The notes beneath the pieces were generated by a model, which was given only the letters and a program-made list of their open reading frames with translations, did not search any database and had not been told where the DNA came from. The position numbers and the translations under genes are program-made. 59,691 nucleotides of DNA from a virus (Duplodnaviria > Caudoviricetes): the IMG/VR virus record IMGVR_UViG_3300030330_003594, positions 1 through 59,691 of that record; one strand, written 5' to 3'. Shown piece by piece: positions 1-59,691 of the stretch (its first letter is position 1; each line of letters begins with the position of its first letter).

Positions 1-11
1 TCAAGTGGACG

Positions 12-260
12 ATGCGGTCCAGCACATCTTACAATCAATCAAAGATGGAGACATCTAAACTAAGCGAGTACTTCTATATAGCTTGCGATAGGATTCACCA
101 GGTCATTGACGACCTGTATGAATCTCTGCATGACGAGGAGGGTAAACCGCTTATCTCTGCCGACGATGTAGAGCATGCCATGGAGGGGATCAAAGCCTCC
201 GTCTATCAGGAGCTAGACTTGATTAAGTCCGTCATCGATGAGTACGAATCTGAGCAATAA
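12..260 (+). CDS. Hypothetical acidic phage protein (start may be 45)
   Basis: ORF overlaps the next + gene; helical acidic composition. Confidence 0.55.
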   Translation: MRSSTSYNQSKMETSKLSEYFYIACDRIHQVIDDLYESLHDEEGKPLISADDVEHAMEGIKASVYQELDLIKSVIDEYESEQ

Positions 261-747
261 GCGCAGAGCTTATAGCTCATCTACGGGTCGGATGGCCGAG
301 GTTAGATTTGTTAGGGCGGCTAGATCGAAGGGACTCCTTGTCACCAAGTCAACGCATACAGAGGACAGACACGAACACATCGACTACTGGCTGGCGGTGA
401 GCCCCAACGGGAAGCGGTGGGGCGTGGATGTCAAAGGCAACAATCTACCTGATGAGATCTGGGTAGAGTTCAAGAATGTAAGAGGTGATGCAGGTTGGCT
501 GTATGGGGGCGCTACCATCATAGCTTTTGACATACCAGAAGAAGGCGGGTTCTCGATCGTTGATCGCGAGGAGCTCGCCTTTTTTTGTGAGAAGCACGTA
601 AGAGATGAGGCGGTGTCCAACAAGAGGGATGCATACTTAAAAAAGTATACTCGCAAGGACAGGCAAGATGTAATAACAATACTTAAACTGCACGATATCA
701 AGTCTTTGCTGTCGTACAGAGTGTGGGAATACGATAAAAAGTATTGA
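238..747 (+). CDS. PD-(D/E)XK-family nuclease-like phage protein
   Basis: Motifs HIDYW...VDVKG and EIWVEFKNVRG..GWLYG fit a restriction-endonuclease-like fold. Confidence 0.65.
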   Translation: MSTNLSNKRRAYSSSTGRMAEVRFVRAARSKGLLVTKSTHTEDRHEHIDYWLAVSPNGKRWGVDVKGNNLPDEIWVEFKNVRGDAGWLYGGATIIAFDIPEEGGFSIVDREELAFFCEKHVRDEAVSNKRDAYLKKYTRKDRQDVITILKLHDIKSLLSYRVWEYDKKY

Positions 748-763
748 CTATCTTTATCGGTCC

Positions 764-970
764 ATGAAAACTAACAGGCACAAGAAGATCAAGATGAAAA
801 TCGACAAGCTCTTACAGCAGAATGCAAGCTACCAAGCTCAGCACACTTGTGTCAACAACACGCCTGAAGAAAAGAAAAGGATCAACGAGTACTGCGAGAA
901 GAACTTCATTGATCCTATCCGAGAGATCGACTGCCGAACCTACGACCTCGTAAAAAAACAGAGCGATTAA
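764..970 (+). CDS. Hypothetical protein
   Basis: 68-aa ORF preceded by TATCTTTA (749-756); converges on the thioredoxin-like gene. Confidence 0.55.
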   Translation: MKTNRHKKIKMKIDKLLQQNASYQAQHTCVNNTPEEKKRINEYCEKNFIDPIREIDCRTYDLVKKQSD

Positions 971-1332
971 AAGTCGCTCATCAGCACCTCGTCTACTGCC
1001 TCCTGCACATCATCTTGGCTGGCCTCTAGTGTCATCATGATGTTGGCTTGGAAGCGCTTGACTTCTTCCCCTTCGTTGAAGACTACGACAGTAGGGACGA
1101 CGACAATCTTGTGCTCAGTCTGCATCGATGGGTTAGATGCGATGTCAACACGAGATGTCTCGCAGTCGTTCAGGCTTTCGATCCAGGGCACGCTGTTGCC
1201 TGAGTTAAACGAAGCGTTAAACTCGACGACGCATACACCCGATCCGCATACTCCTTTATCCTCCGCAACGTCCACAGAGGTGGCCGCCCAGAAGAATGCA
1301 GAGAGCGCAAACAGGGTTAGTGTTGCTTTCAT
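967..1332 (-). CDS. Exported thioredoxin-fold protein lacking the CxxC site (allele A)
   Basis: Signal peptide; VVEFNASFN in place of F.A.WCxxC; RVDI...HKIVVVPTVVVFNEGEEVKRF matches the Trx C-terminal half with cis-Pro. Confidence 0.75.
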   Translation of the reverse strand: MKATLTLFALSAFFWAATSVDVAEDKGVCGSGVCVVEFNASFNSGNSVPWIESLNDCETSRVDIASNPSMQTEHKIVVVPTVVVFNEGEEVKRFQANIMMTLEASQDDVQEAVDEVLMSDF

Positions 1333-1335
1333 TGA

Positions 1336-1620
1336 TCATCTTAGTTGGTCTATCTTTTCTTCAATACGTTTGATATCCTCCTTCATCTCGGTGATATCTT
1401 CTTGTGTACTCATGATTGTTTGACGGACAAGCTGGTCCTTCATGTCGAACTCCATGCGCGTAATGTCTGGGTCGGGCGGTATGGGCAACTCCTTTGCCTC
1501 TGCGATGTCTGCCTGCAGGGCGAACCACATGGCTACGATTGTGCCAATCCCCGCCGCCAGCATGCCTATTGTCTTTAGGTCTAGCGTAATCTTAGTGTCC
1601 TCCCCAATCTGCTGAGCCAT
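1336..1620 (-). CDS. Single-pass membrane protein with C-terminal coiled coil (allele A)
   Basis: Hydrophobic IGMLAAGIGTIVAMWFAL, Pro-rich hinge, heptad tail; 84/94 residues identical to 57721-58005. Confidence 0.75.
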   Translation of the reverse strand: MAQQIGEDTKITLDLKTIGMLAAGIGTIVAMWFALQADIAEAKELPIPPDPDITRMEFDMKDQLVRQTIMSTQEDITEMKEDIKRIEEKIDQLR

Positions 1621-1621
1621 A

Positions 1622-2656
1622 TCAAATAATTACATAGTTGATTCCCAGGGAGAAGTCATGCCACGATCTATCCCAGTACTTGTGGTACTTACCCTCTGCG
1701 AACACTCCAAAGCTTTTGTTAAATCTTTTACCAAAGATAAGGCCGCCAGAGTAATCAAGCCACTGACCACTGTTAACAAACCTATGATAGGAGTACTCTC
1801 CGTCCGTGTCTAGGTGATAGGGGATCAGGTTACCCCAGCTGTGTAGCCAGAAGTTCTTGGTGAAGTGGTAGTAGTCAAACCCAACTACCACAGAATGAAC
1901 CCATTGGTTGTCCAGTTCACCACGCTTCTTGTCTACGTAATCTTCGAGAGCCTGAGGGATTACCACCTCCTCCCACACTTCGTAGCTGCTGGCTACGAGT
2001 GTCCCGTCGGGGCTGAAGAACTCCCCTGTGTTTACGTCAATGCTGTACCCCTCTTGCAGAGCGAGCGAAGTGAAGTGAAGCTGGTTGTTGTCAAGCAACC
2101 ACTCGTTCAGTGGGTCGTATCCGTATGGCTCTGACAACCGTTGCATGATGCCTGCATTGAGGGACAGCTTGCCAATCTTGGCCCTTACCCTTTGTGATGC
2201 CTCGAAGTACCTGACGTCTGCGAATCCATCTTGCAGGAACTCTACCTTAGTGATCCACCTGTCCGCCACGTATCTCAGGAAGTAGTCCTGATCTAGATAG
2301 TTGACGCCCTGCTGCCTCCTGTAGTCTCCCTCGAATAGGAACTCAAAGCCGCTCACCTTTCCGATGGTGGCGGCGTCACCGTATGACTTCTCTGTCCCGT
2401 TGTAGAATGTGTTGGCTCTGTTCTCGTATCCGAAGCGTGCGATCTTGCGGACGCCAGCAGTAAGAGAGTAGTCGAACGGAGTCTCGATCACATCAGTCTG
2501 CAATCCATTGGCTACAGAGAACACCTCTCTATCTGACAAGGAGTTGCCTCCGCTGAAGGCGGTGTAGAACGTAGCAAACTTGAGTGCCTTCTTGATTCCC
2601 TGGCCTGACGCATCAAGGCTGATCAGCAGGGTCAATATGGTTGCGATGTATCTCAT
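1622..2656 (-). CDS. Exported, probable outer-membrane beta-barrel-like protein (allele A)
   Basis: Signal peptide ending ASG|Q; aromatic-rich alternating strands; terminal strand FSLGINYVII. Confidence 0.65.
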   Translation of the reverse strand: MRYIATILTLLISLDASGQGIKKALKFATFYTAFSGGNSLSDREVFSVANGLQTDVIETPFDYSLTAGVRKIARFGYENRANTFYNGTEKSYGDAATIGKVSGFEFLFEGDYRRQQGVNYLDQDYFLRYVADRWITKVEFLQDGFADVRYFEASQRVRAKIGKLSLNAGIMQRLSEPYGYDPLNEWLLDNNQLHFTSLALQEGYSIDVNTGEFFSPDGTLVASSYEVWEEVVIPQALEDYVDKKRGELDNQWVHSVVVGFDYYHFTKNFWLHSWGNLIPYHLDTDGEYSYHRFVNSGQWLDYSGGLIFGKRFNKSFGVFAEGKYHKYWDRSWHDFSLGINYVII

Positions 2657-4794
2657 TGCTTGACGATTCTTTCTACCACGATTCTTCCCTTGTAGTTGAT
2701 GACAACCTCATACAGCCCATTAGGAAGCGATCTGAGGTCGATCTCTCTGTCGCCAGTACAAGATACCACAAGCTGTCCAGAGTGGCTGTAAACGTCTGCA
2801 AATGCTCCGACTGGTCCCTGGAAGTTGATTACTCCAGATGTCGGGTTCGGGTACAGGTGGATCAAACCCATCGCCACGTCCTCTACACTGGTCACGCCTT
2901 GGCTGCAGTACTCGTACATCTCAATGCACACGGCATCCCATCCAACCTCACAGCAGTAGGGGTCAACCTCGATCACCCATGAGTAGCAGTAATCATTGGC
3001 CCAGTATGGTTCCCCTGGGCCAGTGATACATCCAGCATCATATAGGCACTCCTCGTTGGCGGGTACGTTGGCGTACACGTTGTAGTTAGCTGCGTCAGGG
3101 TCCATGCAGCCAGGCATAGGCAACTCACAGCTCCCGTTGTTGGTGTTGGCCATTGGGTCGTAGTTCAACGCCTCGGGGATCGTGCATCCGTAGATGAACG
3201 GGATGCAGCTATTGTTCTCTGTGTTGGCCAGCTCATTATAGTTGAACATGGTAGGGTCAGTGCATCCAAACACAACCTCCTCGCACTCTGCTGGATCGGT
3301 AGCCGCCTCGTTGTAGTTGTAGGCTGTTGGGTCTTGACATCCGACCACCTCTAGCTCATCACACACTCCGTCTCCATCCGTGTCGTTGATGCACTCGTTG
3401 TCGCACCCGTAGTATTCGATAGGGAACGTGCAGTCCCCGTCTACGTTTGCCTCTGGGTTGTAGTTGCAGGCGAAGCTAAGAGTACATCCCTCGATACCAG
3501 GCACACAGAAGTCTCCGCATACTGGGATGCCGCTGTACTTGAATGGGAACTTCTTGATGGCGTCAGACCACGGGTTGGTACCCCCTTCCATGAACACACC
3601 GTTTGGTCCGTCGAAGTAAAATCCACACTGAGAGGCTGTTGTTTCGGCGTTGCCCTGCGTGAAGAACATGACGTTCACACCCTCGCCAGAGTAAAGCGGA
3701 ATCTGAATCTCTTTCTCAAACCCGTCGTTGGGGTGCATGGTGATCGGCCCCCAGATCTCGTCACCCTGCTGCACTCCGATCCAGCTACCGAACCAACCGT
3801 CACCTGCGCCGTCTGTAAGTGTCAGAGTGAACTCACAGTTGTCTTCTGTCTCTAGCGTGTTAGCATCTTCGTTGAAGTTAATGGCACCTGGATCTGTACA
3901 GCCCAGGATCACCTCTGTCTGGCAACTGCCATCGTCGATCACGGCACTGGGGTCATACTCTGTAAACCATGAGTCGGTACACCCCTGAGGGATCGGAGGA
4001 AAGCACGGGTCTACAACGATGATATCGCTACCAATGCTCTCGTATTGAGTGGTGTCACCAACGTAGTACAGCTCATCTCCGCACAGGTTAGACACGAACA
4101 GGTTGCCATCGACGCCACCGTAGCAGCTACCGCACATGCCGTCGCCAAAGGCGTCGTATACGTTGACCTTGAACTCTGATCCGATGGGCAGGCATACAGC
4201 TTCTACAACAGGGGCCCCTACAATAGAATAGCCTGACCCCTCTGCAACTATCTCACCATCTGGGAATGTCATTAAGTCCCAACTGATTTCTGATGCGTAA
4301 GTGTCAGGCGTTACTGTGACAAGAACATTGCTGTATCCTTCTTCACATTGTGCGGGGGGAAAGTCGCATGGGGCCGGGGCGTTGGCCCAAGGGTGGTAGT
4401 TGATAGCACCCGCCTGCATACATCCAAAGATTGGAGGAGGGCACGACAATACCTCAAAGGGAATCGTTTGTTCTGAGGTGCTGAAGTCGTATACTGTAGT
4501 GTCTAGGACGCAGGTGTTGACAGAAAACCAGCCCTCACCAAAACCACAGCAGATGCCGTCGCCGAAAGAGTCGTAGATAGTAAAGGTATAATTACCTACA
4601 GGCAGGGGAAGAAAGGCTTCAACATAGGGATACTCTCCCTGCAATGGAGCCGACCCAGCAACGATAGCATCGCTAGAGTCTCTTACCAGCCACGTTGTCT
4701 CTCCACCGTATGCGTCTCCTTGTATGGAGATAGAAACCCAGCCTGTCTGCGCTGTTGCAAACAGCGGGAACAAAAGGAGAGGTAGAAATCTCAT
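2653..4794 (-). CDS. Cys/Asp-rich secreted protein with type IX secretion (type A) C-terminal sorting domain
   Basis: Start reassigned to MRFLPLLLFPLFATA|Q (ATGA overlap with amidase stop); three D(S/A/G)xGDG modules; GCTDxxAxNY repeats; DTDGDGVCD; CTD LYPNPTSG...SGQLV...LPNGLY...ERIVKQ. Confidence 0.85.
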   Translation of the reverse strand: MRFLPLLLFPLFATAQTGWVSISIQGDAYGGETTWLVRDSSDAIVAGSAPLQGEYPYVEAFLPLPVGNYTFTIYDSFGDGICCGFGEGWFSVNTCVLDTTVYDFSTSEQTIPFEVLSCPPPIFGCMQAGAINYHPWANAPAPCDFPPAQCEEGYSNVLVTVTPDTYASEISWDLMTFPDGEIVAEGSGYSIVGAPVVEAVCLPIGSEFKVNVYDAFGDGMCGSCYGGVDGNLFVSNLCGDELYYVGDTTQYESIGSDIIVVDPCFPPIPQGCTDSWFTEYDPSAVIDDGSCQTEVILGCTDPGAINFNEDANTLETEDNCEFTLTLTDGAGDGWFGSWIGVQQGDEIWGPITMHPNDGFEKEIQIPLYSGEGVNVMFFTQGNAETTASQCGFYFDGPNGVFMEGGTNPWSDAIKKFPFKYSGIPVCGDFCVPGIEGCTLSFACNYNPEANVDGDCTFPIEYYGCDNECINDTDGDGVCDELEVVGCQDPTAYNYNEAATDPAECEEVVFGCTDPTMFNYNELANTENNSCIPFIYGCTIPEALNYDPMANTNNGSCELPMPGCMDPDAANYNVYANVPANEECLYDAGCITGPGEPYWANDYCYSWVIEVDPYCCEVGWDAVCIEMYEYCSQGVTSVEDVAMGLIHLYPNPTSGVINFQGPVGAFADVYSHSGQLVVSCTGDREIDLRSLPNGLYEVVINYKGRIVVERIVKQ

Positions 4795-5210
4795 GAGTCG
4801 AGGTGTGAAAACTTTTCTTGAACGACGAAGCTTGGGCAAGCTTTGTTGGAGTATTCGTTGTGACCGTGGATGGTGATGTCTTTTCCAAAAAGACATCTCA
4901 CACCGTTGACGATTTCTTCAAAAGCGCAAGCCTGATCCTCAGTCATTGTATCTTTCGGAAGCATGCCCTCATCACATCCTCCGATGTAGCATACACCAAC
5001 CGTCGTTTTGTTGTGCCCCTTGACGTGAGCACCTGCCTTGTCGATGGGTCGTCCCAGCTCCACACTACCGTCAAGCCTGATGACGTAGTGGTATCCGATG
5101 TCAGCCCAGCCGTTTCCGTTGACGTGCCAATCACGGATTGTTTCCACGCTGTAGTCTTTGCCCTCGGGTGTAGCCGAGCAGTGCAATACAATTCTGTCAA
5201 TGTTTCTCAT
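4791..5210 (-). CDS. N-acetylmuramoyl-L-alanine amidase endolysin (T7 lysozyme/Amidase_2 type)
   Basis: Zn-amidase motifs IVLHCSAT, DIGYHYVI, GAHVKGHN, HGHNEYSNKACPSF. Confidence 0.93.
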   Translation of the reverse strand: MRNIDRIVLHCSATPEGKDYSVETIRDWHVNGNGWADIGYHYVIRLDGSVELGRPIDKAGAHVKGHNKTTVGVCYIGGCDEGMLPKDTMTEDQACAFEEIVNGVRCLFGKDITIHGHNEYSNKACPSFVVQEKFSHLDS

Positions 5211-8200
5211 GGTGTAGCAAATGCTTTTTCTGTTAGAATAGATTCAAGACCTGCCTCAGATTTTATACCTAAGTAGAAGAAAGCAAAATTAAAGTATGCA
5301 TTGTACTCTTCCTCAGTCATCTCCCTCTCTTTTGCCTTGAGAACAGAAGCGATTTTCTTAGAGCTTTCTTTGGACAATCTACGCATTTCGTTCGCATGCT
5401 TGCTGTACTGCTCAGGCATTATGTTTTGCAGCAGCTTTTCAGCAACAGCGGGCTTCAAAGCAGACTTGAATTTTGATGCGCTGATGTTTTTATCTAAGGT
5501 GGTCAAGTCGCTCTCTGCTTGCATCTTCAAGATGCGCATGAGTTTGTCAATACCGATCTCTTCACCAGCTTCAAGGTAAGCTTGAAGCTCTGGGTCTTCA
5601 CTGAAAGCTTGTGTCACAAACTCGTATGCCGCAGCTTCCTCCTCGCTCGTCAGAGATCTGTTCATAGGCATGTCGTCCATAGCCTTGGCAAAGTATTCCA
5701 ACTCTTTGACACCCAAGCCCACAAGGTTGGCGCCGTGTAGTGTTGCCCTCAAGACCGTGCTGATCTGCATGTGCTCTTGATCTTCAGGCCGCACAAATCT
5801 TTCACTTCCAGAACTAGTCGTATACGACTTGCCATCTCTGTTTAGTCGATCAATAGCAGTGGTAATATCTCTGAACTTCTGTCCCGCCGGGCCAGTCAAC
5901 CCAAGCAAACTATACAAGGCTCTAGCCCCTGGCTCTTTTTCATTTTGCGCCATGTCCGCATAGCTATCTCCATACGTTGGGACAGCACCACCGTACTTTT
6001 TGAACAAAGCAAACTTGTCTTCTTTTTCAAGGCCAGGAATGTCATAGTCCGCTTCGTTGAAGAAAACGTAATAGTTGAAAGCATCTCGAACGTTGTCGTC
6101 TACCATACCGATAGATGGAACGGGAAGAGCGTCAACCACAGCACCCACACCAGCCTCCTTGATGGCCTGTGCAGGATCAAACTCCTTTTCTTCGTCATCA
6201 TCATCACCCATCACTTGTTTGACAATCTCGTTAAAGAGTGCCCGGGTCATTTGAGATGCCAGGTGAAAGGCAAACAAGGACGACATCGTTGCAGCAAAAC
6301 CTTTGGCTCCATCCTTTCGTGCTTGCAGATCCTCTCCCATCAGGAGTCTCCCCACGTCTGCTGTGAGCGATCTTTTCGTGTTGATGGCAAAACTTTGGAA
6401 CGGGAAGAACGCTTGCATCAAGCTTCGACCAGCACCACCAGCTTTTTTGTAAATCGCCGCTGCCATTCGAGCACTTGAGGTGTTCTGATCTTTCTCAAGC
6501 ATGTTGTCGGCATACGCCAAGGCTTCCGGATTTGCATTAGCAGCTTCGCTTGTCCAATCGATATCAGATGCGCTCGTCACAATGCCCTGTTCAATCAAGA
6601 AGTCTGCATAGTAAGCAAAGAAAGAAGCAACAGCAACTGCCTTATCCGTTGTAGTCAAAGCCCACAAAGACTTGTTTGTGAACATGTCTCTCAAGCGTCG
6701 GAATCTAGACCTGTCAAAGTTTGTGTTACCCTGAAACGGGTCGATGTTTCCCGCACGGTAGTCTCTCAAAAATGCCGCACTTCTTTTGAGCAACTCGAAC
6801 TTGTCTCCAGGAAGCTTGACAGTAGGATCGCTCAAGACCCTACGCTTGCCCTCAATGTCTGTTCCAACGAACGTCAATGCAAGGATGCTCGTTGACTCCT
6901 GAATGAAATACATCATGGAGCTGATGCTCCGCATATTCATGAATGTCGCCAAGCCGACGGTGCCCTGTTTGACAACCTGAACAAAAATCGATCCGAACGC
7001 ACCAACAACCGCCGCAGCACGCAAGGATTCGATGGGGTTCAACAATGTCTTATCGCCAACCCGCACACGACTGCTGAAGATGAACGGTTCGCTTTGCGTT
7101 TCAACTTGCAAGAAATCCCTGACGTACTGCTTAAGCTGACCAGCAGCTTCGTCTTTTACCAAGTTGCCAAACGCTTCAGTGCCAAACGCATACTCCATCG
7201 CAAGGATGTCCCCCAAAGCTGTAGTGATCAATGCATTCTCTCTCAGGGTGTTGTGATTGATGTCGATGAAATTTAATCCCAAGATGGCATCACCACCGAC
7301 GGCTCTTTGCTCTCTTTCGAAAGTTGCGCCTGGAGTTTTCTGTACTCCGCCTCTTGATGAGGCTTGCATCCTGCTAACCAGTGCATTGCGCAAGGCCATA
7401 ACAGATTCTACATCCTCATCTTTAGAGGTTTTCCTAATCTGGAATGGCGTGTAGTTGTCAAGGACGCTAAGCTCTTTACCAAGAAATCTTTCTGCAAAGA
7501 TTTCCAAGTCGGGCCTCGCTCGTTCGTGCAGATCGACCATGAAGTCCACCATCTCTACAACCTCAGGGCGCCCTGTCTGCACACGGTTTTGCAACGCCTC
7601 TAGCGTTGCTTCTCCTGTAAACAAGAAGTCAAAAGCTTCTTTGAACTGGTCGATCGTTTCCTGAACAGCACTTTCATTTTGCTCTATGTCCTCGATCGTA
7701 GCCTGCATAGAATCACGCAAGGCTTTATACCATGCCGCTTTCTTTTCTGCAAGACGCTGCTCAAACTCCTCTTGCGTCCGAGAAGCAGCACGAGCCTCTT
7801 CAACAAACTCTTTTGGCATCTGACGAGACATGCTGTATATCTGCGACAGTGCTTGACTCAGCTTCGATGTAATATCTGTTTTGCCCTTCAGAGAAAACTT
7901 CTTGTTGATCTCGTCAATCTTGTCTTGCAATCCTCTGGCAGTTTCCAAGTGCCTTTGTTCAAAAGCATTGATGGCCATGATTACGTCTTGCAATCCGATG
8001 GCGACCTTGATTCGAGCAATGTCTCTGTTGCTCACACGGAAAAGATTCCTGAGCAGACTAGACAAGTTATCCAACACACCAAGAACGGCTGTTCGCTTTG
8101 ACGAAATACCTCTGTCTGTCAGTTCCGTGATTTTGTCGGCATAGTTGATGCGCCCCTTGGTGAGTGCCGCCAAGTATCCGAGTCCAAATGTTCTGCCATT

Positions 8201-11200
8201 GACGAGGTAGTCGTTGAGCTTAAACTCGATCGCCAAGAGGTGGTGCTTCTCAAGTTTGTCTAATCTTTTACGAATTTTGTTAAACACCTCATCATCTTCG
8301 ATGTTGGCGTTTTGAGGCAAGCCCAGGATCAAGCGGAACCCTGGGTCAGCAAGGATAGCCTCGGCATTGAAAAGCAACAGAGGCATAATGCCTTCATCAA
8401 TGATCAAAGATTTCTTTAGATCAACCAGCGCCTTCTCCTCTTTGGCAAGCTCCAAGTAGATAGTCTCCAGATCGTCCACTTGAGCTGGATCAAGGCCCAG
8501 CTTCTCTGCCATCTTGTTGACCCTTTTCTGCGTGGCACTAAGCCTGCTCTCGAAGAACTTCTTCAAGATAGCTTCGTACTCTGCTTCAAACGTGGTTTCT
8601 TCACCCCTCAAAAGCTTACGCTCTACGGCTCTCTCAGCCCTAGCCCGAAGCTCCGCCTGCTGCTGTGCTTGCTCGATTGCTTTGAATGCATCGAGCTGCG
8701 CTTGTAATCCTTTTACCTCATTCAACTGAGTGGCGTTGAACACAAGATTGCCCTCCTCATCCTTGGCAAACCGTCCACGGCGCATGTTGTTGTTGACCGT
8801 GTTGAGCAAATCCATGAACGCCTCAAGCTCGTGGAGAGGAATCAAGGACGCCTTGATGCGAGACAAGGCTGCTGCAAGATCAGCGTATGTCGTGAAGTCT
8901 CGTTGCTTCGACTTACGCTTCAACGTGCTTTGCAACCTACGAATGAGCTGCAAGTTTTTAAGGTGCCTCTCCATAGCACCCTTAGCATCTTGCTCATCAA
9001 AGATGGCAGCGAGCTTGTCTAAGTGAGCATCGATGTACTCTAACTCGTTGCCCTTCAGCTTCTTAGCCGACGAACGAGACAACTGAGACATGACCTTGAA
9101 GAACTCTGTCAGTTGCTTTACAGTGAAGACTTTGGATGCGCCCTTGTCCTTGGCCATCCGATCTTTGATCAGCTTGCGGGCCTCACGGATGAACTGCTGC
9201 ACCGTAGACACTTTGTTTTTCAAAGCGTCCAGCTCTTCTCTCAGCTTCTTTGCCTCGTTAGAAAGCTTGTTCTTTTCTCTTCTAATCTTAGAGACAACCT
9301 TACCCTGCTCCGTGCGTCCGACTCTGCGGCCCCGAGCAAACTGCACTGCCTTCTTGTAGGTTTCCTCAGCATCCTTTTTGCTCATGCCAGAATCCTCTAG
9401 CACCTTCAAGACTTCCTCCTTCTTGGGCTTGAACAGTCGGATTTGATCGCTCTTTTCTAGAACGAGCTTTTTCTTTTTACCTCGGCCCACCTGCTTCAGG
9501 GTGAACCCTGGCTCCGTCATGATATCTGCGACGGTGCTCACAATTCCCTGGCGCTTCGTGACAGACTCAACCGTGGTGTCTGCATCGGACAAAGACTCAA
9601 TGCTGTTGCGGATCAGATCAATCTGGCCCTCAGAAAACACCCCGCCTACATCACCAGCAATCGTTTTGATCAGGGCTGGCTTGGAAAGAGCTGCGATATC
9701 TGCGCCCGCCTTGGCCAGTTGCTGTACAATTTCTGTCGGCACGATGTCCACGACATTGAACAGAGAGGTAGGTGTACCTACAAACTTGCCCAGGATAGAG
9801 TGTTGATAGGTGTCGTGAACGTCAGAGTCCTCTTGGATACCCGTCGGCTCCAACACCCCTACGATGTCACCCGTTTGCGCATCAATCTGGGCAAGGTATT
9901 CGTCTCTAAGGAGTTGGTTGAAGACGTCTTGCTTCGGCACGCCAAGCTCGTCGTGCAAGAATCTATGGAACTCCAGGGATGGCTTGACGCCCATCCCTTG
10001 GTGGAGCATGTTTTGCACAAATGTCTTGCGTGATGGGTGATCGACCACGTCTTTGCCTCGGCTGTTCAGGGCCTTCAGCACGCCCATCCACTTCTTTGTT
10101 TCTGTCTTGTCTTTCAAAAGAGAGTTTGTGATTTGCACAAACTCATCAAACGACCCCTCTACAATCTCGACCCCACCAAAGGTTTTGCCGATGTTTCTTT
10201 TCATCCCAGCTTCGATCTCCTGGATCAACACCTTGGACGTACCCTTAGAGAAGTTGTGTGCCGACTTGGGTGAGCCAGACATCAGGAAGATGTAGTCAGC
10301 TCGACCGACCCTGTCATTCAACGTCTTGGGAGACAAGCCTGAAGCCCAGACCACATCATTGTCTTGGTTTTGCTGGTCGGTACTAAATCCGATGCCCCCC
10401 AAAACCTGTGCCTCAACGCCTGTATCAGGGTTGCTATATGTGCCTCTCTTCAACTGGTCAGCCATCCACACCCACACGACAGGGTTGCGATTGTTTTCAG
10501 CCTTGAAGTCAGACAACAGCTTGCCAATATCTACCCTCGGCTGGTTGGCCATGTAGGTTCCTGCCACATTGATGGCTTGCTTCTTGGCCTGGACTTGGGC
10601 GGGATCAACAGGAAGCCCCTCTTCAGTGACAGATTCTTGCGAGTCCAACCCCGGCTGCACACTGTTGCCGTCCTCATCTACCTGTGCCTCTAAAATTTGA
10701 GCACGAACTTCACGATCGTCCAGCGTTGCATCATCCTCCTCTTCATCGATGGCTGTTGGGCCCTCTTGCAGTCTCAGGCCAGCTTCGATAATGGCTTCGG
10801 TGTCGGCCACGGCCTCACCCCTAGCCATCGTTTGCGTAGCGGCGTCGATGGCGTCAACAACGGCTTTGAGCTTTGGGTCTTTGAAAGAAGTGCCAAAGGT
10901 GCGAGACACAAACTCCTTGAGCCCTGAGATCAAGCCCGCCTTGAACTCAATGCTCAACGTTCCTGATGTAATCAACGACTTGATCTCTGTCAACAGCTCG
11001 TCTGCCGCAGTATCGTTCTCCGAAACGACTTGCATCAAAAGCTTTCTCTGCATAGCAGGGTCTGCCTCAGCCAAAGCAAGGACGGATCGTTGCTCTTCAG
11101 GCAGGTATGCCGCAATAAATCTCGAGAAGACCTCGATGTTTGGAATCAGACGTGCCAACGTTGCGGCAAGACGTCTGGTGCCTGCCTTGGTATCTTCTTG

Positions 11201-14200
11201 ATTTTCGTTTTGCAAAGTGGCCTGGTGAAAGGCTTCGTGATATGGCGTGTTGGCCTGTAGTGCAGGCAAGAACAAATGCACCTCAGCACTTTGCACTGTG
11301 CCATCCTCCTTTCTCTTGTACACCACATGCACACCTCTAGCAACACGCTCCCCTGTAGCTTTTTCATACGCTTTCGTGGTGCCGTGCAAAAACACCTTGC
11401 CACCTGTCCCAGCTTCAGTGACCGTGGCAATAATGTTCTTGATGTTTTGCAGTCCACGAATGATGTCTTCTCTGTTTGAAAAGGCGGTGGTGACGATTTT
11501 GCCTGATGCGATGATCCTGTCGATGACAGAGCCCGCATTTTTCGATGTCAGCTCAACCGTGTTTCCTCTACCTACCCTGCCGTATTCAGTGATATCGGGG
11601 TCCGTAGATCCCACCTCTCTGATGACAGCCTGCACTTCAGGATCTTCCAAAGCAAGGTCTACAGAGTTTTCGTTCTGAGCATATTTGCTTTCGATTTCAA
11701 ACTTCTTCTTGAAGCTTTCTCTAATCTGGTTCTGAAGCAGATTTATTTGTGCCTCGTAAGTAGCGACCGCAGCTTTGTTATTAGCTGCTTTGGCTTGTGC
11801 AAGTAGGGCTCTAAGCTTGCGAGCTTCTTTACGAGCCCCTGTAATGTCTTGATTGTGACCGAAAATAGCTTCCGCATCTTCGTCGGAAACGTTTGCAAGG
11901 AACGATAAGTCTCTTGCAGCCACTCTATGCTGTTCTTCTTGAACAGCAAGCATCTTTCTTTTAATGTCATCTCTTTCTTGTTTTGTTGTTGCATTTTTGA
12001 ACTGCTCACTGAGCTCTTCGTATCTGTTTTGCAGACGAATTTGATCTTTCAGGCGGAACTTACTTGCCACATACGATGGCGCTCGAACAATGCCAGTTTG
12101 TATGCCTCCTGCTGCCACGCCCACCACGAAAGAGTCAGCTACCTGACCCCACGAGACGGACAACTGTGCCTTCTGTATTTCTTTTGCGGCGATGCTTTTT
12201 TCCAGACGGTCTTGGACCTCTGATGCAATACCTGGTGTCTCGATCTTTTTCTGGATATCCTCGATCTCACGATCCAATGCCAGCCTCTCGGCGTAGTTGC
12301 GCAACCCTTGATCGGCAACAGAAACCAAGCCCTCCTCAATACCCTCCTCCAAGAACCTGAACGCTCTGTTGGTTGTGACTTTGTCAAAGACATTTTTTGC
12401 CTGCAACAAGACACCCTTTTCGGCGGGGACAGTGCCCCACAAAAGAGCCTTACCGCCACGCCCTGCCAGTGGCTTGAGACCTACAGCTTTGCGGATGGCA
12501 TCAGCAGAACCTAATTCCGCCTTCATGAAAAGCTTTTCTGACAGATACTCTATGCCACCAGCCAGCGTGCCAAAGGCCAGCTTTTCACCCGAAGTAAGAT
12601 TTGAATTTTGGTTCAAATCTTCTATTGTAGACCCTGCGCTTCCCAGTGCAAAGCTGATAAGTGTTGCTTCAGTAGCCCCTGTTGCCAAGCCTACAATTTG
12701 TAAGCCAATCTGTGGGAGTGCTTCGGCTACCATGCTTGTAAACATGACGCCTCGTGCATACTCGTCCCCAAGGCTTTGTCCAAACACACCTCTTTGAATC
12801 TGCTCTAGGGTCAGTCCTTTTTTAAGATTGCTGGCCTGTGAGATACCCGCTGAGAGCTCCCCGAAGGTAGGAGCTTGATCAGGTTCTACACCTAAGATTC
12901 CTGCGTAAATATCTTGAAATGATGCAGAGTCAAAAAAATCTTCATCTCCTTCTGCCGTGTCTAGGATGGCATCAGTAAAGTTTAAGACACCTGAAAAAAC
13001 CATACCGACCGTCTTGAAAAGGTTGGGGGCGATAAGATCCTCCTCCAACTGACGGCCTAAAAACTCTCCTGACGTTCTGTACGCTTGCAGAGCCATGTCG
13101 CTTTCCATAGCAACCTGATCCAAGGCTACTTGCCCGATAAGCTCAGAAATATTGTACGCTCTACGCTCCAAACCCAACACCTCATTCGCCTCGTTGTAGG
13201 TGTTGATGATGTCGGTGCGTCTGCTTGCCAAATCTGCTTGCACTTCTTGGCGCTCCTCCTCTGTTACTGCTGTGTTGAAGCGATCCACAAAAGCCTCAAG
13301 CTCTGAGATAGCGGCCTTCTTTCCGTCCTCTGCCTGCACGACCTCATTGCGTGCGTTCCAATACCCCGCAATTTTCTTGTACTTGTCCTCTGAAAACTCA
13401 ATGTTTCTTCGCAAGTAGTAGTCTGATGCCTTCTCAAACGTGTTAATTTTTTCAGGCATGTTTGGCTGAATGGCAGCCAGCTCTTCGTCCGTCTGAGGGA
13501 TATAAGAAGAGTTGATGTTGCCTAGCTGACTCTCATAAAAGGGCATGCTCATACCCTCCTCATCTTCAACCTCAGGCAAGGCTTGAACCTGCTCTTCGGT
13601 GTACTTGCCGATACCAAACTCATTGTTGATAATCGACGTCTTGAGGTTCTCTTTTGATGAGGATAGCTCTGCACGATCGACGATCAAGCCAGCACTCAGC
13701 ATCACATCGTTGATATCCTTTGTGGTCACTGAGGTGCCTGTAAACAGAGGTGTGTCTTTTAGCGTGTCAAAGATTTCTTTTGAAAAACCCTCCCTTTCCT
13801 GTTCGCTAAGCGCATTGCCCAACACCCCTCTACCCTGCAACCACTTTTGCGTTTCCTTGAAGATGAAGTATTCTCTTTGGTTCGCTTGGTACTCAGATGG
13901 TGCGGATCCTTCAGTGCTGTATGCCTCAATAACCGACTGAGTATCAGTCTCATACAGCTCTTGTATGTCTTCTGGAGAAAACTCTCTACCACGCCCTGTC
14001 TCTTCAGCGGACATGGTGGCCATCCTTTCATAAGGATCTACCGCCTCACCAAAAAGCGATGACAGATACCCAGACCTATTTTCTTCAGCTTGCTTTCTGG
14101 CGCTCTCTATGTCTTGCACGGGCTCGAAGCTTGAATCGCCTGTAAGCGATTCTAAGCCTGCAACATAGTCGGAAGAGAAAGCTGACTCTTTTTTTTTTGG

Positions 14201-33993: not shown

Positions 33994-34946
33994 TAGAAAA
34001 CAGAGTAGTGTGTGTTCATATCCGTCATAACATCGTTTTGTGTTGGAAGCGATGCAGCAGACCACATTACAACTTCTGAGAGAAATCCAGTGTATTGTGC
34101 AGCTCCATTGTCAGGTCTTCGACCTATGGCTACAAGAATATTCCCATTGTTGATGAGACCAGCCCCAGAGCTGCCAGGAAAGCCTGTATCTGTATCAGCG
34201 GTATCACCATTGACATCCAGATCTCCTGAGGCGTGGTCCAAAGATCCAACCACAAGATACTCCGTGTTGACAGCTACCTGGGCATTGGTTTGAACTCTAC
34301 CCAAGTGTTTTGATCCTGTGCCAAATCTCGCAGCAAGCCTTAGATCACTTGCAGCACCAAGAATATTCATCTGAAAAACCTGTGTAGACTGACTTGAAGT
34401 CCACTGACTGAAGATATACTGTCCAGCAGTAACAGATCTAAACTCAGCCATAAGCGACAGCATAAGCCTGTCACTGTTGTTAGTCACAAAAGTATCTTCT
34501 AACCAACGTGATGTGGAGCTGAAATAAAAGTCAAGAGCTGGTATCGAGCTGTCTGTTGTTGTAATCAAGTTCCCAGATGCATCAACGATGTAGGGCCTTG
34601 AGGCAGCAGTAGACTGCTCCATGTGATTTGAGTTTCCACTCTGATCCCACCATTTTGAAACTCGACCATAGTTGCTTCCACAGTGCGTAGTAAGAGCTGA
34701 AGTGTCCAATCCTCCAGCCGCAGTAAATCCAATATCTGCTGTTGCCCCTGATGAGTTCTCTACAGTAATTGCATAGGTGGCAGTAGAAGACAACTGCCTC
34801 AATGAATAAGCACAAACTGAGCCAGCATGATCATCTAAAAAGTAAGAGGGGACTATCCCTTTCACCTTTGCTACACCAGACTTTGTTACACCAGAAATCT
34901 TATTGATAGAGCTGTAAGTAACTCCAGAAAGTTTGCTTATGCTCAT
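33993..34946 (-). CDS. Putative receptor-binding protein with ConA/LamG-like lectin domain
   Basis: AYSLRQL, VSKWWDQSGNSNH, IGRR...YTGFLSEVVMW. Confidence 0.65.
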   Translation of the reverse strand: MSISKLSGVTYSSINKISGVTKSGVAKVKGIVPSYFLDDHAGSVCAYSLRQLSSTATYAITVENSSGATADIGFTAAGGLDTSALTTHCGSNYGRVSKWWDQSGNSNHMEQSTAASRPYIVDASGNLITTTDSSIPALDFYFSSTSRWLEDTFVTNNSDRLMLSLMAEFRSVTAGQYIFSQWTSSQSTQVFQMNILGAASDLRLAARFGTGSKHLGRVQTNAQVAVNTEYLVVGSLDHASGDLDVNGDTADTDTGFPGSSGAGLINNGNILVAIGRRPDNGAAQYTGFLSEVVMWSAASLPTQNDVMTDMNTHYSVF

Positions 34947-56821: not shown

Positions 56822-56907
56822 ACTATTGGACAACCCACACGACGGTTACAAATCAAGATTGCGTGATCGTGCCCTGCTACAAGGGCTACATGATTGCAAT
56901 TCGCTGA

Positions 56908-57342
56908 TTACTTCTTGGCCTTTTCGATGGTGCGACCTGCGAAGTATGCACCAAAAGCTGTGAGCATCAAGATCTGAAGAAGGTCAACGTAAGCGTCTTT
57001 CACATTGAACGCTACGTTGTCCATGCTATCAACAACCATAGTCACCATGAACATGCTCATCAAAGCAATCAAGGTGACGGGACGGATAAGCTTGGCCAGC
57101 TTTACATCGCTGCCCATGTCTGCCTTCCATCTCTCTGTTACATTGTTTTGAAAAGCGATTTCTGCATCTACCGCAGCTATGCCCGCAGCCGTATCGACTT
57201 CAGGATCTTTCTCAATCAAGTTCTTGACAACACCCAACCCACCGCTATCGGGGAGCAGGTCACCTACCACAGACAAAACATTGGGAGCTTTGTCTTTCAA
57301 CCAAGATCCTAGCTTGGTGTCTTTGATTTTCTTTTCACTCAT
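56908..57342 (-). CDS. Putative holin (3TM/GTA-holin-like)
   Basis: RWKADMGSD...LIRPVTL, two hydrophobic helices, AYFAGRTIEK. Confidence 0.72.
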   Translation of the reverse strand: MSEKKIKDTKLGSWLKDKAPNVLSVVGDLLPDSGGLGVVKNLIEKDPEVDTAAGIAAVDAEIAFQNNVTERWKADMGSDVKLAKLIRPVTLIALMSMFMVTMVVDSMDNVAFNVKDAYVDLLQILMLTAFGAYFAGRTIEKAKK

Positions 57343-57351
57343 AGTCTTGTG

Positions 57352-57717
57352 TTAAAAGTCACTCATTAAGATATCGTCGATGGCTTCTTGCACCTCATCC
57401 CTGCTTGCCTCCATTGTCATCATGATGTTGGCCTGAAATCTTTTGACCTCTTCCCCCTCGTTGAACACAACAATGGTTGGCACCACAACAATCTTGTGCT
57501 CCTGCTGAAGAGCAGGAGCAGTTACAATGTCCACACGGCTTGTTTCGCAATCGTTCAGTTTTTCTATCCATTCCACGCTGTTTTGGGAATTGAAAGATGC
57601 GTTGAACTCTACTACACAGATACCGATGTCACATATTTTGTCATCCGCTACATCTGCCACAGAGGTGGCCGCCAACAATAGCGCAGAGGATGCAAACAGG
57701 ATTGATAGGATTTTCAT
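57352..57717 (-). CDS. Exported thioredoxin-fold protein lacking CxxC (allele B)
   Basis: Homolog of 967-1332; ICDIGIC, VVEFNASFN, VVPT. Confidence 0.75.
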   Translation of the reverse strand: MKILSILFASSALLLAATSVADVADDKICDIGICVVEFNASFNSQNSVEWIEKLNDCETSRVDIVTAPALQQEHKIVVVPTIVVFNEGEEVKRFQANIMMTMEASRDEVQEAIDDILMSDF

Positions 57718-57720
57718 TTG

Positions 57721-58005
57721 TCATCTTAGTTGATCTATCTTTTCTTCAATACGCTTGATGTCTTCTTTAATCTCGGTGACATCATCTTGCGTAGTCATGA
57801 TTGTTTGACGAACCAGTTGGTCTTTCATATCAAACTCCATCCTTGTGATCACAGGGGCGGGCGCAACGGGCAGCTCTTTGGCCTCAGCAATATCTGCCTG
57901 TAAAGCGAACCACATAGCCACAATAGTCCCGATGCCTGCGGCTGCCATACCTATGGTTTTGAGGTCTAGCGTTACTTTAGTGTCTTCCCCTATCTGCTGT
58001 GCCAT
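57721..58005 (-). CDS. Single-pass membrane coiled-coil protein (allele B)
   Basis: Homolog of 1336-1620. Confidence 0.75.
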   Translation of the reverse strand: MAQQIGEDTKVTLDLKTIGMAAAGIGTIVAMWFALQADIAEAKELPVAPAPVITRMEFDMKDQLVRQTIMTTQDDVTEIKEDIKRIEEKIDQLR

Positions 58006-58006
58006 G

Positions 58007-59041
58007 TCAAATGATTACATAGTTGATGCCAACAGAGAAGTCATGCCATGACCTGTCCCAATACTTGTGATATTTACCCTCTGCAAAGACACCAAAACTC
58101 TTATTGAATCTTTTACCAAATATAAGGCCGCCAGAATAATCAAGCCACTGCCCACTGTTGACGAAACGGTGGTAAGAGTATTCCCCGTCGGTGTCAAGAT
58201 GATATGGAATGAAGTTGCCCCAAGTGTGTACCCAGAAGTCTTTTGTGAAGTGATAGTAGTCGAAACCCAACACGATTGAATGGACCCACTGATTCCTCAG
58301 GTCGCTCCTCTTTTTATCTACGTAGTCCTTCAAGACCTCGGGGATGACAACCTCCTCCCAAACGTCGTAGCTGTTTGCGACGACTTCCCCATCTGGATTG
58401 AAGAACTGTCCAGTGTTGACATCTATATTGTACCCTTCTTGTATAGCGAGTGAGGTGAAGTGCAACTGATTGTTGTCCAAGACCCACTCATCAAGTGGGT
58501 CGTATCCGTAGGGCTCAGACAATCTTTGCATAATACCTGCGTTGAGCGACAGCTTACCAAGCTTGGCACGAAACCTTTCAGATGCCTCGAAGTATCGGAC
58601 GTCAGCAAACCCGTCTTGCAAAAACTCTACTTTAGAAATCCACTTGTCGGCGACGTATCTCAGGAAGTAATCCTGATCGAGATAGTTGACGCCCTGTTGT
58701 CTTCTGTAGTCGCCTTCAAATAGAAACTCAAAGCCACTCACCTTGCCGATAGTAGCGGCATCACCGTATGACTTTTCTGTTCCGTTGTAAAAGGTGTTCG
58801 CCCTGTTCTCATATCCAAAGCGGGCAATCTTTCTGATGCCCGCTGTCAAAGAGTAATCGAAAGGTGTCTCTACAATGTCGGTTTGCAGGCCGTTGCCTAC
58901 AGAAAAGACCTCCCTGTCGGACAGAGAGTTTCCACCACTAAACGCTGTGTAGAAGGTCGAAAACTTCAGAGCTTTCTTCAGAGACTGGCCCGACGCAGTG
59001 ATCGAAAAGCCAATCAACAAAATGGTTGTGATGTACCTCAT
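58007..59041 (-). CDS. Probable outer-membrane beta-barrel-like protein (allele B)
   Basis: Homolog of 1622-2656; same length; ASG|Q signal peptide. Confidence 0.65.
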   Translation of the reverse strand: MRYITTILLIGFSITASGQSLKKALKFSTFYTAFSGGNSLSDREVFSVGNGLQTDIVETPFDYSLTAGIRKIARFGYENRANTFYNGTEKSYGDAATIGKVSGFEFLFEGDYRRQQGVNYLDQDYFLRYVADKWISKVEFLQDGFADVRYFEASERFRAKLGKLSLNAGIMQRLSEPYGYDPLDEWVLDNNQLHFTSLAIQEGYNIDVNTGQFFNPDGEVVANSYDVWEEVVIPEVLKDYVDKKRSDLRNQWVHSIVLGFDYYHFTKDFWVHTWGNFIPYHLDTDGEYSYHRFVNSGQWLDYSGGLIFGKRFNKSFGVFAEGKYHKYWDRSWHDFSVGINYVII

Positions 59042-59691
59042 TGTCTTACGATTCTTTCTTTTGTAATGCGACCTTGGTAGTTTGCCATGATCACATACAC
59101 CCCTGGAGATGGGAGGTTGATTCGAGTGTCTTGTGTCTCAACTACCCTCCTGCCTGATGCGTCGTAGATCGTAATCACTGTTCCTGTAGGCGCCTCCACA
59201 TTGATGATGTTTTGCGTAGGATTAGGGAAGAAGTACGTCATCTGTCCGACATCCGAGGTGATGGACGACACCTGCCCTGCACAGTATTCGTACTGGTTGA
59301 TGCACACCGCATCCCAGCCGACCTCGCAGCAGTAAGGGTCAACCTCGATCACCCACGAGTAGCAGTAGTCGTTGGCCCAGTATGGCTCACCTGGGCCAGT
59401 GATGCATCCAGCGTCGTACAGACACTCTTCGTTGTTGGGTACGTTAGCATACACGTTGTAATTGGCAGCGTCAGGGTCCATACACCCAGGCATAGGCAAC
59501 TCACAGCTTCCATTGTTGGTGTTGGCCATAGGGTCGTAGTTCAGCGCCTCGGGGATCGTGCAACCATAGATAAACGGGATGCAGCTATTGTTCTCTGTGT
59601 TAGCCAGCTCATTGTAGTTGAACATGGTAGGGTCAGTGCATCCAAACACAACCTCCTCGCACTCTGCTGGATCGGTAGCCGCCTCGTTGTA
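59038..59691 (-). CDS. 3' part of the T9SS cargo gene (allele B); continues across the overlap into 3316-4794
   Basis: Cys-rich repeats nearly identical to allele A; CTD FFPNPTQN...YDASGRRV...PGVYVI...ERIVRQ. Confidence 0.85.
   Translation of the reverse strand, partial: YNEAATDPAECEEVVFGCTDPTMFNYNELANTENNSCIPFIYGCTIPEALNYDPMANTNNGSCELPMPGCMDPDAANYNVYANVPNNEECLYDAGCITGPGEPYWANDYCYSWVIEVDPYCCEVGWDAVCINQYEYCAGQVSSITSDVGQMTYFFPNPTQNIINVEAPTGTVITIYDASGRRVVETQDTRINLPSPGVYVIMANYQGRITKERIVRQ

What the first reader, a model, noticed from the sequence alone, without database searches (positions are those of the whole stretch)
967..4794. Phage-encoded four-gene envelope cassette built around a type IX secretion cargo
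Seen: four tightly coupled genes (ATGA overlaps or 1-3 nt gaps), all with export or membrane signals. They encode a 713-aa Cys/Asp-rich protein ending in a YPNP...G.Y...K CTD, a 344-aa beta-strand protein, a TM/coiled-coil protein and a Trx-fold protein. Established: type A CTDs route cargo through the Bacteroidota T9SS to the cell surface. Inference: a phage with no integrase uses the host T9SS to display its own protein, with dedicated outer-membrane, inner-membrane and periplasmic partners. Possible roles are receptor masking or superinfection exclusion, adhesion of infected cells, or outer-membrane breach. I know of no characterised phage system of this composition.
Basis: partly seen in the sequence, partly recalled or inferred. 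Interest (0 to 1): 0.9.

Follow-up and report, generated by a model that had tools for sequence, protein, structure and literature searches.

The report
Phage envelope module with T9SS cargo
A marine Flavobacteria-type phage carries a conserved, phage-only set of four exported proteins, one tagged for the host's type IX secretion system; what the set does at the cell envelope late in infection is still unknown.

Summary
On the minus strand, 967-4794 encodes four tightly coupled genes. One is a 713-aa Cys/Asp-rich protein whose tail passes both T9SS type-A CTD models and matches solved CTDs. The others are a 344-aa 12-stranded outer-membrane beta-barrel, a 94-aa single-pass membrane protein and a thioredoxin-fold protein that has lost CxxC. 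In 80 related viral loci no member is missing wherever the contig is long enough, and bb-tm-trx order is fixed in 73 of 73. The barrel family is viral: it was found in 2 of 401 Flavobacteriales genomes, one of them on a contig also catalogued as viral. The cargo's N-terminal modules occur in 155 of 401.

The cassette is translationally coupled to the endolysin. A holin follows the second, diverged copy at the contig's other end (57352-59691), which is probably a strain-variant wrap-around of a ~56.4 kb genome. In same-backbone complete genomes the cassette sits about 25-29 kb from the holin.

Function is unproven. My best reading (about 0.4) is late, T9SS-dependent surface remodelling with dedicated partners. 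The main rival (about 0.3) is a non-canonical outer-membrane step of lysis. Phage-encoded T9SS cargo has been reported once; I found no description of this module.

The parts
2653..4794 (-). CTD713, the T9SS type-A cargo. Signal peptide is res. 1-16 (nt 4747-4794). Two homologous beta-sandwich domains (res. 17-115 and 154-255) and a third (319-422). About eight short Cys-bounded 'GCxDPxAxNYNxxAN..C' repeats. The CTD is res. 647-713 (nt 2656-2856).
   Evidence: 56 of 59 distinct homologue tails hit TIGR04183
1622..2656 (-). bb344, a phage-specific outer-membrane beta-barrel of the 12-stranded class, with a signal peptide and an insert of about 75 aa (res. 176-250).
1336..1620 (-). tm94, a bitopic membrane protein: one TM at about res. 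17-37, a Pro-rich linker and a charged helix. It is the most conserved member.
   Evidence: 73% mean column identity; at least 8000 homologues, nearly all 94 aa among the 120 listed; no match in deposited phage records
967..1332 (-). trx121, an exported thioredoxin-fold protein. CxxC is replaced by N-x-x-N, the cis-Pro 'VVPT' is kept and Cys57 is invariant.
961..979 (-). Terminator-like hairpin plus T-run at the trx121 stop codon; end of the late operon, convergent with orf68.
4791..5210 (-). Amidase_2 endolysin, translationally coupled (ATGA) to the cargo gene downstream and to the 3063-aa gene upstream.
   Evidence: PF01510 E 2e-11; phrog_822 E 1e-51; junction bridged by run contigs
56908..57342 (-). 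Holin (144 aa, C-terminal TM helices), immediately downstream of cassette copy B.
   Evidence: phrog_3427 E 2e-21; matches phage genes annotated as holin
57352..59691 (-). Second, diverged copy of the cassette: trxB 57352-57717, tmB 57721-58005, bbB 58007-59041, and the C-terminal 217 aa of a CTD gene cut by the contig end.
   Evidence: 75%, 89% and 88% aa identity to copy A; spacing 56385 nt; last 105 nt are 98% identical to 3211-3315
764..970 (+). orf68, a small Cys-containing cytoplasmic protein. Convergent here, but encoded between the cargo and barrel genes in other phages.

Best explanation
This is a horizontally mobile, phage-only, late-operon envelope module of marine Flavobacteriales phages.

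Shown: the cargo has an N-terminal export signal and a bona fide type-A T9SS C-terminal domain. It is disulfide-rich, and its N-terminal modules are also found in host proteins. The other three genes encode an outer-membrane 12-stranded barrel, a bitopic membrane protein and a redox-dead periplasmic thioredoxin fold. All four travel together.

Inferred: the cargo crosses the inner membrane by Sec and the outer membrane by the host T9SS while the proton-motive force still exists, that is, before holin triggering. It then stays on the cell surface. The three conserved phage proteins act as its dedicated anchor or assembly partners.

Most likely purpose (inference): to re-dress the infected cell's surface late in infection, by occupying or masking surface structures that serve as receptors. 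Progeny would then not be lost on debris and vesicles, and superinfection would be blocked.
For: CTD by HMM above both curated cut-offs and by fold. 56 of 59 distinct tails hit TIGR04183. 55 of 58 distinct complete cargo homologues show a hydrophobic N-terminus followed by Q, as in the Bacteroidetes Q-rule (PMC10367356, passage).

Co-occurrence in 80 loci: tm 77, trx 73, cargo 76. Every miss lies at a contig end.

The cargo is far more variable than its partners. Median identity to the window is 39% for the cargo, against 66%, 69% and 60% for bb, tm and trx; cargo lengths range 411-1134 aa. Its N-terminal modules occur in 155 of 401 Flavobacteriales genomes inside large ORFs, while the barrel occurs in 2 of 401. 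This is the pattern expected of a surface-interaction protein under diversifying pressure.

The region is a microdiversity hotspot: run contigs are fragmented over about 800-4400 and the contig itself holds two variants.

Position is not tied to lysis genes. In complete same-backbone genomes G402 and G403 the holin is about 25-29 kb away.

Phage resistance in Flavobacterium maps to gliding/T9SS genes (titles and abstracts only), so T9SS-displayed surface proteins are plausible receptors.
Against: There is no direct evidence of secretion, surface retention or receptor binding. Nothing explains why a displayed protein would need an inner-membrane and a periplasmic partner. Known exclusion or masking factors (T5 Llp, Cor; recalled) are single proteins and are often early genes, whereas this module lies in the late operon. 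In the window the cassette is coupled to the endolysin, and in 36 of 80 loci it lies within 2.5 kb of a holin or endolysin homologue, which favours a lysis role. The N-terminal domains have no convincing functional fold match: the multi-C2 hits have TM about 0.08.
Confidence: 0.4

Rival explanations
1. Non-canonical outer-membrane step of lysis. After holin and endolysin act, the conserved trio disrupts the outer membrane in place of Rz/Rz1-type spanins. The trio is an inner-membrane-anchored helical protein, a periplasmic Trx-fold adaptor and an outer-membrane barrel. The cargo assists or is an add-on.
For: In the circular reading the order is giant-endolysin-cargo-barrel-tm94-trx-holin, with ATGA coupling. 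L004-L006 show exactly this order with a single cassette. In other phages the cassette abuts endolysins of three other kinds: phrog_894, phrog_33083 and a PG-binding type. 36 of 80 loci have an annotated-type holin or endolysin seed within 2.5 kb on the same strand, and 10 more have only small-TM or unannotated seeds. tm94 has i-spanin-like topology. No lipobox protein, hence no canonical o- or u-spanin, was found in the window or in G402 and G403. Spanins are rarely identified in cultured flavophages (PMC8776804, passages).
Against: 34 of 80 loci show no lysis seed nearby, and the seeds were themselves picked from cassette neighbours, with no random-placement control. In G402 and G403 the cassette lies between the portal and capsid genes, about 25-29 kb from the holin and 12.7 kb from the endolysin. 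tm94 and the barrel are unusually conserved, whereas spanins are typically fast-evolving (recalled). A T9SS cargo is always present where testable but has no obvious lytic role. The periplasmic part of tm94 is only about 57 aa.
Confidence: 0.3
2. The genes are linked but have separate jobs. The cargo is an accessory secreted protein (adhesin or glycan binder). tm94 and trx121 regulate lysis timing, by analogy with the T4 holin T and its periplasmic antiholin RI (recalled), and the barrel does something else.
For: The cargo gene changes place relative to the trio: upstream in 58 loci and downstream in 18. Other small genes can be inserted between members (L022, L045, L067). The complex prediction gave no usable answer either way.
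Against: No locus lacks any member where the flank suffices. bb-tm-trx order is fixed in 73 of 73 loci. The module moves as a unit between genome positions.
Confidence: 0.12
3. A nutrient-capture auxiliary module: a surface binder, a Tsx/KdgM-like channel and a periplasmic binder that boost uptake during infection.
For: The best structural neighbours of the barrel are the specific channels Tsx, KdgM and NanC. The cargo is built of host-type surface modules.
Against: The module lies in the late or lysis operon rather than with early or metabolic genes. There is no transporter in the inner membrane; tm94 has a single TM. Barrel similarity is at fold level only and is equally close to outer-membrane enzymes and autotransporter barrels.
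Confidence: 0.05
4. A recently captured host operon with no phage-specific role.
For: The cargo's domains and CTD are host-like.
Against: The barrel was found in 2 of 401 Flavobacteriales genomes. One is the MAG whose 43,296-bp contig is also an IMG/VR viral contig. The 30 nearest Atlas clusters are all viral. The module occurs in at least six different phage genome architectures.
Confidence: 0.02

Closest known systems
T9SS type-A CTD cargo proteins of Bacteroidota (for example RgpB, NucA, FspA, RemA, mirolase)
   Same: N-terminal signal peptide plus a C-terminal beta-sandwich of about 70 aa. The tail passes PF18962 and TIGR04183 and superposes on solved CTDs.
   Different: It is encoded by a lytic-type phage and always accompanied by three phage-only envelope proteins. 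The functional domains are of unknown activity.
Phage-encoded T9SS cargo of 'Cryophage' (Bellas et al. 2020, PMC7468147; passages read)
   Same: Phage genes with type-A sorting domains that are highly variable between phage variants; the authors proposed that they hijack the host T9SS.
   Different: Those are an endoglucanase, a GH39 and a PA14 protein, reported without partner genes. Here the cargo is a Cys-rich multi-domain protein in a fixed four-gene module. I could not see that paper's source data.
SprB/SprF-type pairs: T9SS cargo with a cognate PorP/SprF-family outer-membrane barrel (recalled, not from a call)
   Same: A T9SS cargo gene directly followed, here overlapping by ATGA, by an outer-membrane beta-barrel gene.
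   Different: Those cargos carry type-B CTDs. bb344 gives no PorP/SprF or other NCBIfam or Pfam hit at E<=0.1. The cargo gene lies downstream of the trio in 18 of 76 loci.
Two-component spanins (lambda Rz/Rz1; recalled)
   Same: An inner-membrane-anchored protein with a periplasmic helical domain plus an outer-membrane protein, encoded beside the endolysin and holin.
   Different: The outer-membrane partner is a beta-barrel, not a lipoprotein; no lipobox was found. The genes are not embedded in or overlapped with each other. A third, periplasmic Trx-fold protein and a T9SS cargo are present. Sequence conservation is very high.
Phage surface-conversion or exclusion proteins (T5 Llp, lambdoid Cor, PA-2 Lc porin, lambda Lom; recalled)
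   Same: Phage-encoded outer-membrane or surface proteins that alter receptor availability.
   Different: Those are single proteins, mostly of temperate phages or early genes, and none uses T9SS.
Tsx / KdgM / NanC 12-stranded outer-membrane channels
   Different: Only 7-9% identity. There is no sequence-level relation: 0 PDB hits for the family profile at E<=10. bb344 has an extra insert of about 75 aa.
TraF of F-type conjugation, a periplasmic thioredoxin fold without CxxC (recalled)
   Same: A redox-inactive Trx fold used in an envelope machine. There is a weak Pfam hit to the F-type TrbC family (E 0.045).
   Different: No significant sequence relation was shown; the context is different.

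Membership tests
T9SS type-A cargo | C-terminal type-A sorting domain (TIGR04183 / PF18962) | tested here: met
   33.3 bits against cut-off 23; 28.1 against 27; 56 of 59 homologue tails hit
T9SS type-A cargo | CTD adopts the Ig-like beta-sandwich of solved CTDs | tested here: met
T9SS type-A cargo | N-terminal Sec signal peptide | tested here: inconclusive
   Hydrophobic N-terminus ending ...FATAQ; Q-rule pattern in 55 of 58 homologues; no signal-peptide predictor was available
T9SS type-A cargo | Secretion depends on the host T9SS | not testable with these tools
   The host is unknown. TerL relatives infect Flavobacterium, Cellulophaga, Tenacibaculum and Maribacter; a MAG label says Flavobacteriales
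PorV / PorP-SprF / PorQ T9SS outer-membrane barrels (for bb344) | Sequence match to the family models | tested here: not met
   0 families at E<=0.1 in Pfam and NCBIfam
PorV / PorP-SprF / PorQ T9SS outer-membrane barrels (for bb344) | Fold closest to PorV | tested here: inconclusive
Thioredoxin (for trx121) | Thioredoxin fold by homology | tested here: met
   The profile hits 185 PDB sequences at E<=1; the 60 shown are nearly all thioredoxins, best E 1.1e-7; the single sequence is below the curated cut-offs
Thioredoxin (for trx121) | CxxC active site | tested here: not met
   The site reads F-N-A-x-[FW]-N-x-x-N in most of 15 homologues and none has CxxC there; the cis-Pro motif is kept
Two-component spanin | i-spanin: N-terminal TM plus periplasmic coiled-coil domain | tested here: inconclusive
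   tm94 has one TM and a charged helical tail; only weak hits to coiled-coil chains, E>=0.2; no coiled-coil predictor was run
Two-component spanin | o-spanin: outer-membrane lipoprotein with a lipobox | tested here: not met
   The regex scan found no lipobox ORF in the window or in G402 and G403
Two-component spanin | Located in the lysis cassette | tested here: inconclusive
   True in the window and L004-L006 and in 36 of 80 loci; false in G402 and G403
Holin (for tm94) | Small membrane protein serving as the phage's holin | tested here: inconclusive
   A separate phrog_3427 holin exists on the B path; the A path of the contig shows none

The most novel reading that the evidence does not exclude
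The module is a new kind of phage exit machine for Bacteroidota. It would be an envelope-spanning complex (bitopic inner-membrane protein, redox-dead thioredoxin adaptor, outer-membrane beta-barrel) that breaches the outer membrane in place of spanins. It would be functionally coupled to a T9SS-delivered, hypervariable surface protein that prepares or marks the outer leaflet. That would be a lysis step depending on a host secretion system.
Probability: 0.2. Interest if true: 0.9.

Novelty: new variant of a known kind. Interest (0 to 1): 0.7.

Why it matters
Flavobacteriia are main degraders of algal-bloom carbon, and their phages are a main cause of their mortality. This module is very common in marine metagenomes: 3399 barrel homologues, at least 8000 tm94 homologues, and 20 marine or seawater DNA runs from 9 studies. 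Yet three of its four proteins belong to no annotated family, and no deposited phage record among those searched carries it.

Either reading opens a testable question. One is how phages of T9SS-bearing bacteria get through, or re-dress, an outer membrane for which canonical spanins are rarely found. The other is whether phages exploit T9SS to display their own proteins. It also offers a natural, compact T9SS display cassette.

Tried and rejected
Complex prediction (bb 20-344 + trx 27-121 + tm94 as partner): score 0.00, 'no answer'. It is not used as evidence either way.

RNA evidence: no RNA holder was listed among 20 runs, so expression is untested.

ESM Atlas for the cargo's N-terminus: scores 0.79-0.88, leads only.

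Multi-C2 (ferlin, E-Syt, copine) Foldseek hits for the cargo's N-terminal domains have TM about 0.08. VIA-wide was filled by the CTD, so the N-terminal folds remain unassigned.

Profiles of bb344 and tm94 against PDB sequences: 0 hits, and only coiled-coil noise at E>=0.2.

Host-operon capture: rejected.

A strict rule that the cassette always sits in the lysis cassette: rejected after G402 and G403.

Sigma-70 promoter scan: fewer sites than in shuffles, and it does not cover Bacteroidota promoters.

Mosaic test of the window against L001, L004 and L008: there is no clean two-parent breakpoint. Only the contig's last 105 nt rejoin copy A at 98%.

Literature: searches found no description of this four-gene set. 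Supplements were closed, so SI file 7 of PMC8776804 and the source data of PMC7468147 were not seen.


Full report
WHAT IS THERE. The window is a whole 59,691-bp viral contig, rated 100% complete and 'linear'. It is a tailed phage. It has a portal (phrog_6547), a large terminase (phrog_6681), several virion proteins, a primase/helicase and an Erf/exonuclease pair. Its terminase is 41-47% identical to those of Flavobacterium, Cellulophaga, Tenacibaculum and Maribacter phages (104 records). No tyrosine or serine recombinase was found.

The finding's four ORFs are real and lie on the minus strand. They are joined by ATGA overlaps or gaps of 1-3 nt. A terminator-like hairpin sits at the last stop codon.

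THE FOUR PROTEINS.

(1) CTD713 has 40 Cys and 53 Asp.
- Its tail passes both curated T9SS type-A models.
- Upstream of the tail are two homologous beta-sandwich domains (32% identity, E 5e-10) and a third sandwich.
- There are also about eight short Cys-bounded repeats.
- These N-terminal modules also occur, domain by domain, in 155 of 401 Flavobacteriales genomes inside ORFs of roughly 150-6600 aa.

(2) bb344 has no Pfam, NCBIfam or PHROG hit.
- It folds (pLDDT 75.7) as an outer-membrane barrel.
- Foldseek lists mainly outer-membrane barrels.

(3) tm94 has a single TM, a Pro-rich linker and a charged helix.

(4) trx121 is a thioredoxin fold. Its profile against PDB hits 185 sequences at E<=1; the 60 shown are nearly all thioredoxins, with a best E of 1.1e-7. 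Its CxxC is replaced by N-x-x-N, while the cis-Pro motif and one Cys are conserved.

The exported proteins follow the Bacteroidetes Q-rule: 55 of 58 distinct cargo homologues do (rule from PMC10367356, passage).

IS IT A UNIT, AND WHOSE?
- The barrel has 3399 homologues in metagenome proteins. On the 120 listed, the longest contigs are about 85 kb or less.
- It forms 312 clusters at 50% identity.
- It has no match in 50,697 deposited phage records. The same is true of tm94, even at E<=1.
- IMG/VR gave 172 confirmed loci, of which I examined the best 80 (70 distinct barrel sequences). tm94 is present in 77, trx121 in 73 and a cargo gene in 76. Every miss is at a contig end.
- The order bb-tm-trx holds in 73 of 73 loci. 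The cargo gene lies upstream in 58 and downstream in 18.
- 56 of 59 distinct cargo tails hit TIGR04183.
- Only 2 of 401 Flavobacteriales genomes hold the barrel. One is a MAG whose 43,296-bp contig is also an IMG/VR viral contig.
- All 30 nearest ESM-Atlas clusters are viral.
- The module sits in at least six different phage architectures, including contigs of 147-158 kb and loci with ribonucleotide reductase-like neighbours (named from their N-terminal sequence, not from a search).

So this is a phage-borne, horizontally mobile module, not a captured host operon. Its cargo evolves much faster than its partners: median identity to the window is 39%, against 66%, 69% and 60%.

CONTEXT.
- The gene directly upstream, overlapping by ATGA, is an Amidase_2 endolysin. 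Independent run contigs bridge that junction.
- At the contig's other end is a second, diverged cassette (75-89% aa identity) followed by a holin (phrog_3427, E 2e-21).
- The two copies are 56,385 nt apart. Their outer flanks differ, and the contig's last 105 nt rejoin copy A at 98%.
- L004-L006 have one cassette in the order giant-amidase-cassette-holin-p145-p162-primase.

I therefore read the contig as one ~56.4 kb circular or permuted genome walked once plus a strain-variant branch, with one cassette per genome. This is probable, not proven.

Elsewhere the cassette abuts endolysins of three other kinds, or small-TM genes. 36 of 80 loci have an annotated-type holin or endolysin seed within 2.5 kb. 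10 more have only unannotated seeds, and 34 have none. The seeds were chosen from cassette neighbours and there is no random-placement control.

Against a strict lysis link stand two complete genomes with the same backbone (holin 78-80% identical). They keep the holin after the giant gene but carry the cassette about 25-29 kb away, between the portal and capsid genes. In G402 the endolysin is 12.7 kb from the cassette.

No lipobox protein exists in the window or in those two genomes.

HOW IT MOST LIKELY WORKS.

Shown: the export signals, a genuine T9SS tag, an outer-membrane barrel, a membrane anchor, a redox-dead Trx fold, strict co-inheritance and placement in the late operon.

Inferred: Sec export; T9SS passage before the holin collapses the proton-motive force; a surface-bound cargo served by the three partners.

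I give about 0.4 to late surface remodelling (receptor masking, or protection of progeny and exclusion). The reasons are:
- The cargo is hypervariable and host-like.
- The region is a microdiversity hotspot.
- T9SS/gliding genes govern phage susceptibility in Flavobacterium (titles and abstracts only).
- The position is not bound to lysis genes.

I give about 0.3 to a spanin-replacing outer-membrane step of lysis. The endolysin/holin coupling, tm94's topology and the absence of any lipoprotein all favour it. Smaller weights go to separate functions, to uptake, and to host-operon capture, which I reject.

KNOWN OR NEW. Phage-encoded T9SS cargo was reported once, as a 'unique occurrence', without partner genes (PMC7468147, passages). 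A survey states that Bacteroidetes phages use only unimolecular spanins (PMC12596118, passage). Cultured flavophages rarely show spanins (PMC8776804, passages). Six full-text searches found no description of this module.

I rate it a new variant of a known kind (phage envelope or lysis accessory modules; T9SS cargo), built from three unannotated protein families. Interest 0.7.

Noticed in passing
window 57352-59691 versus 967-3315: The contig ends inside a second, diverged copy of the cassette, 56,385 nt from the first. The outer flanks differ and the last 105 nt are 98% identical to copy A. It looks like a circular ~56.4 kb genome plus a strain-variant branch rather than two cassettes per genome.
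   Followed up: partly
window 1-966 and 56384-57342: The 'A' branch (orf85, orf169, orf68) carries no phrog_3427 holin; the only holin homologue lies on the 'B' branch. If the A branch is a real genome, its holin is unidentified, and tm94 would be the only small membrane protein.
   Followed up: partly
window 5207-14398: A 3063-aa ORF with no Pfam or PHROG hit and one internal hydrophobic segment (about res. 2458). Giant genes of 1524-2723 aa precede the holin in related genomes.
   Followed up: no
window 35601-36005: Three tandem 135-nt repeats (76-79% identity), in frame, inside the 483-aa ORF 34943-36394.
   Followed up: no
L022 7485-10796; L045 8997-9642; L067 9036-9669: Small, very basic proteins (K/R-rich, 60-125 aa) are inserted between cassette genes or follow them in several phages. 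Their function is unknown.
   Followed up: no
L016 6769-8004; L023 6439-8004; L041 196-1431: Some phages carry a second, shorter (411-521 aa) signal-peptide protein, with a CTD-like tail in the copy whose C-terminus was printed (L041), between the main cargo gene and the barrel gene.
   Followed up: no
window 764-970; L015 6471-6671; L020 7801-8001: orf68-like small Cys-containing proteins accompany the cassette in many loci. They are convergent in the window and lie between the cargo and barrel genes elsewhere.
   Followed up: partly
L048 13182-14039: A 285-aa lipobox protein lies between the cargo gene and the small-TM and endolysin genes in the L048-type phages. It is a possible conventional outer-membrane lysis factor there.
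   Followed up: no
G403 about 8223-8684; L062 13270-13737: A phrog_1501 protein (unknown function, about 155 aa) lies at about 8.2 kb in G403, near where G402 has its phrog_894 endolysin (about 6.2 kb); whether the two positions are syntenic was not checked. It may be an unrecognised endolysin type.
   Followed up: no
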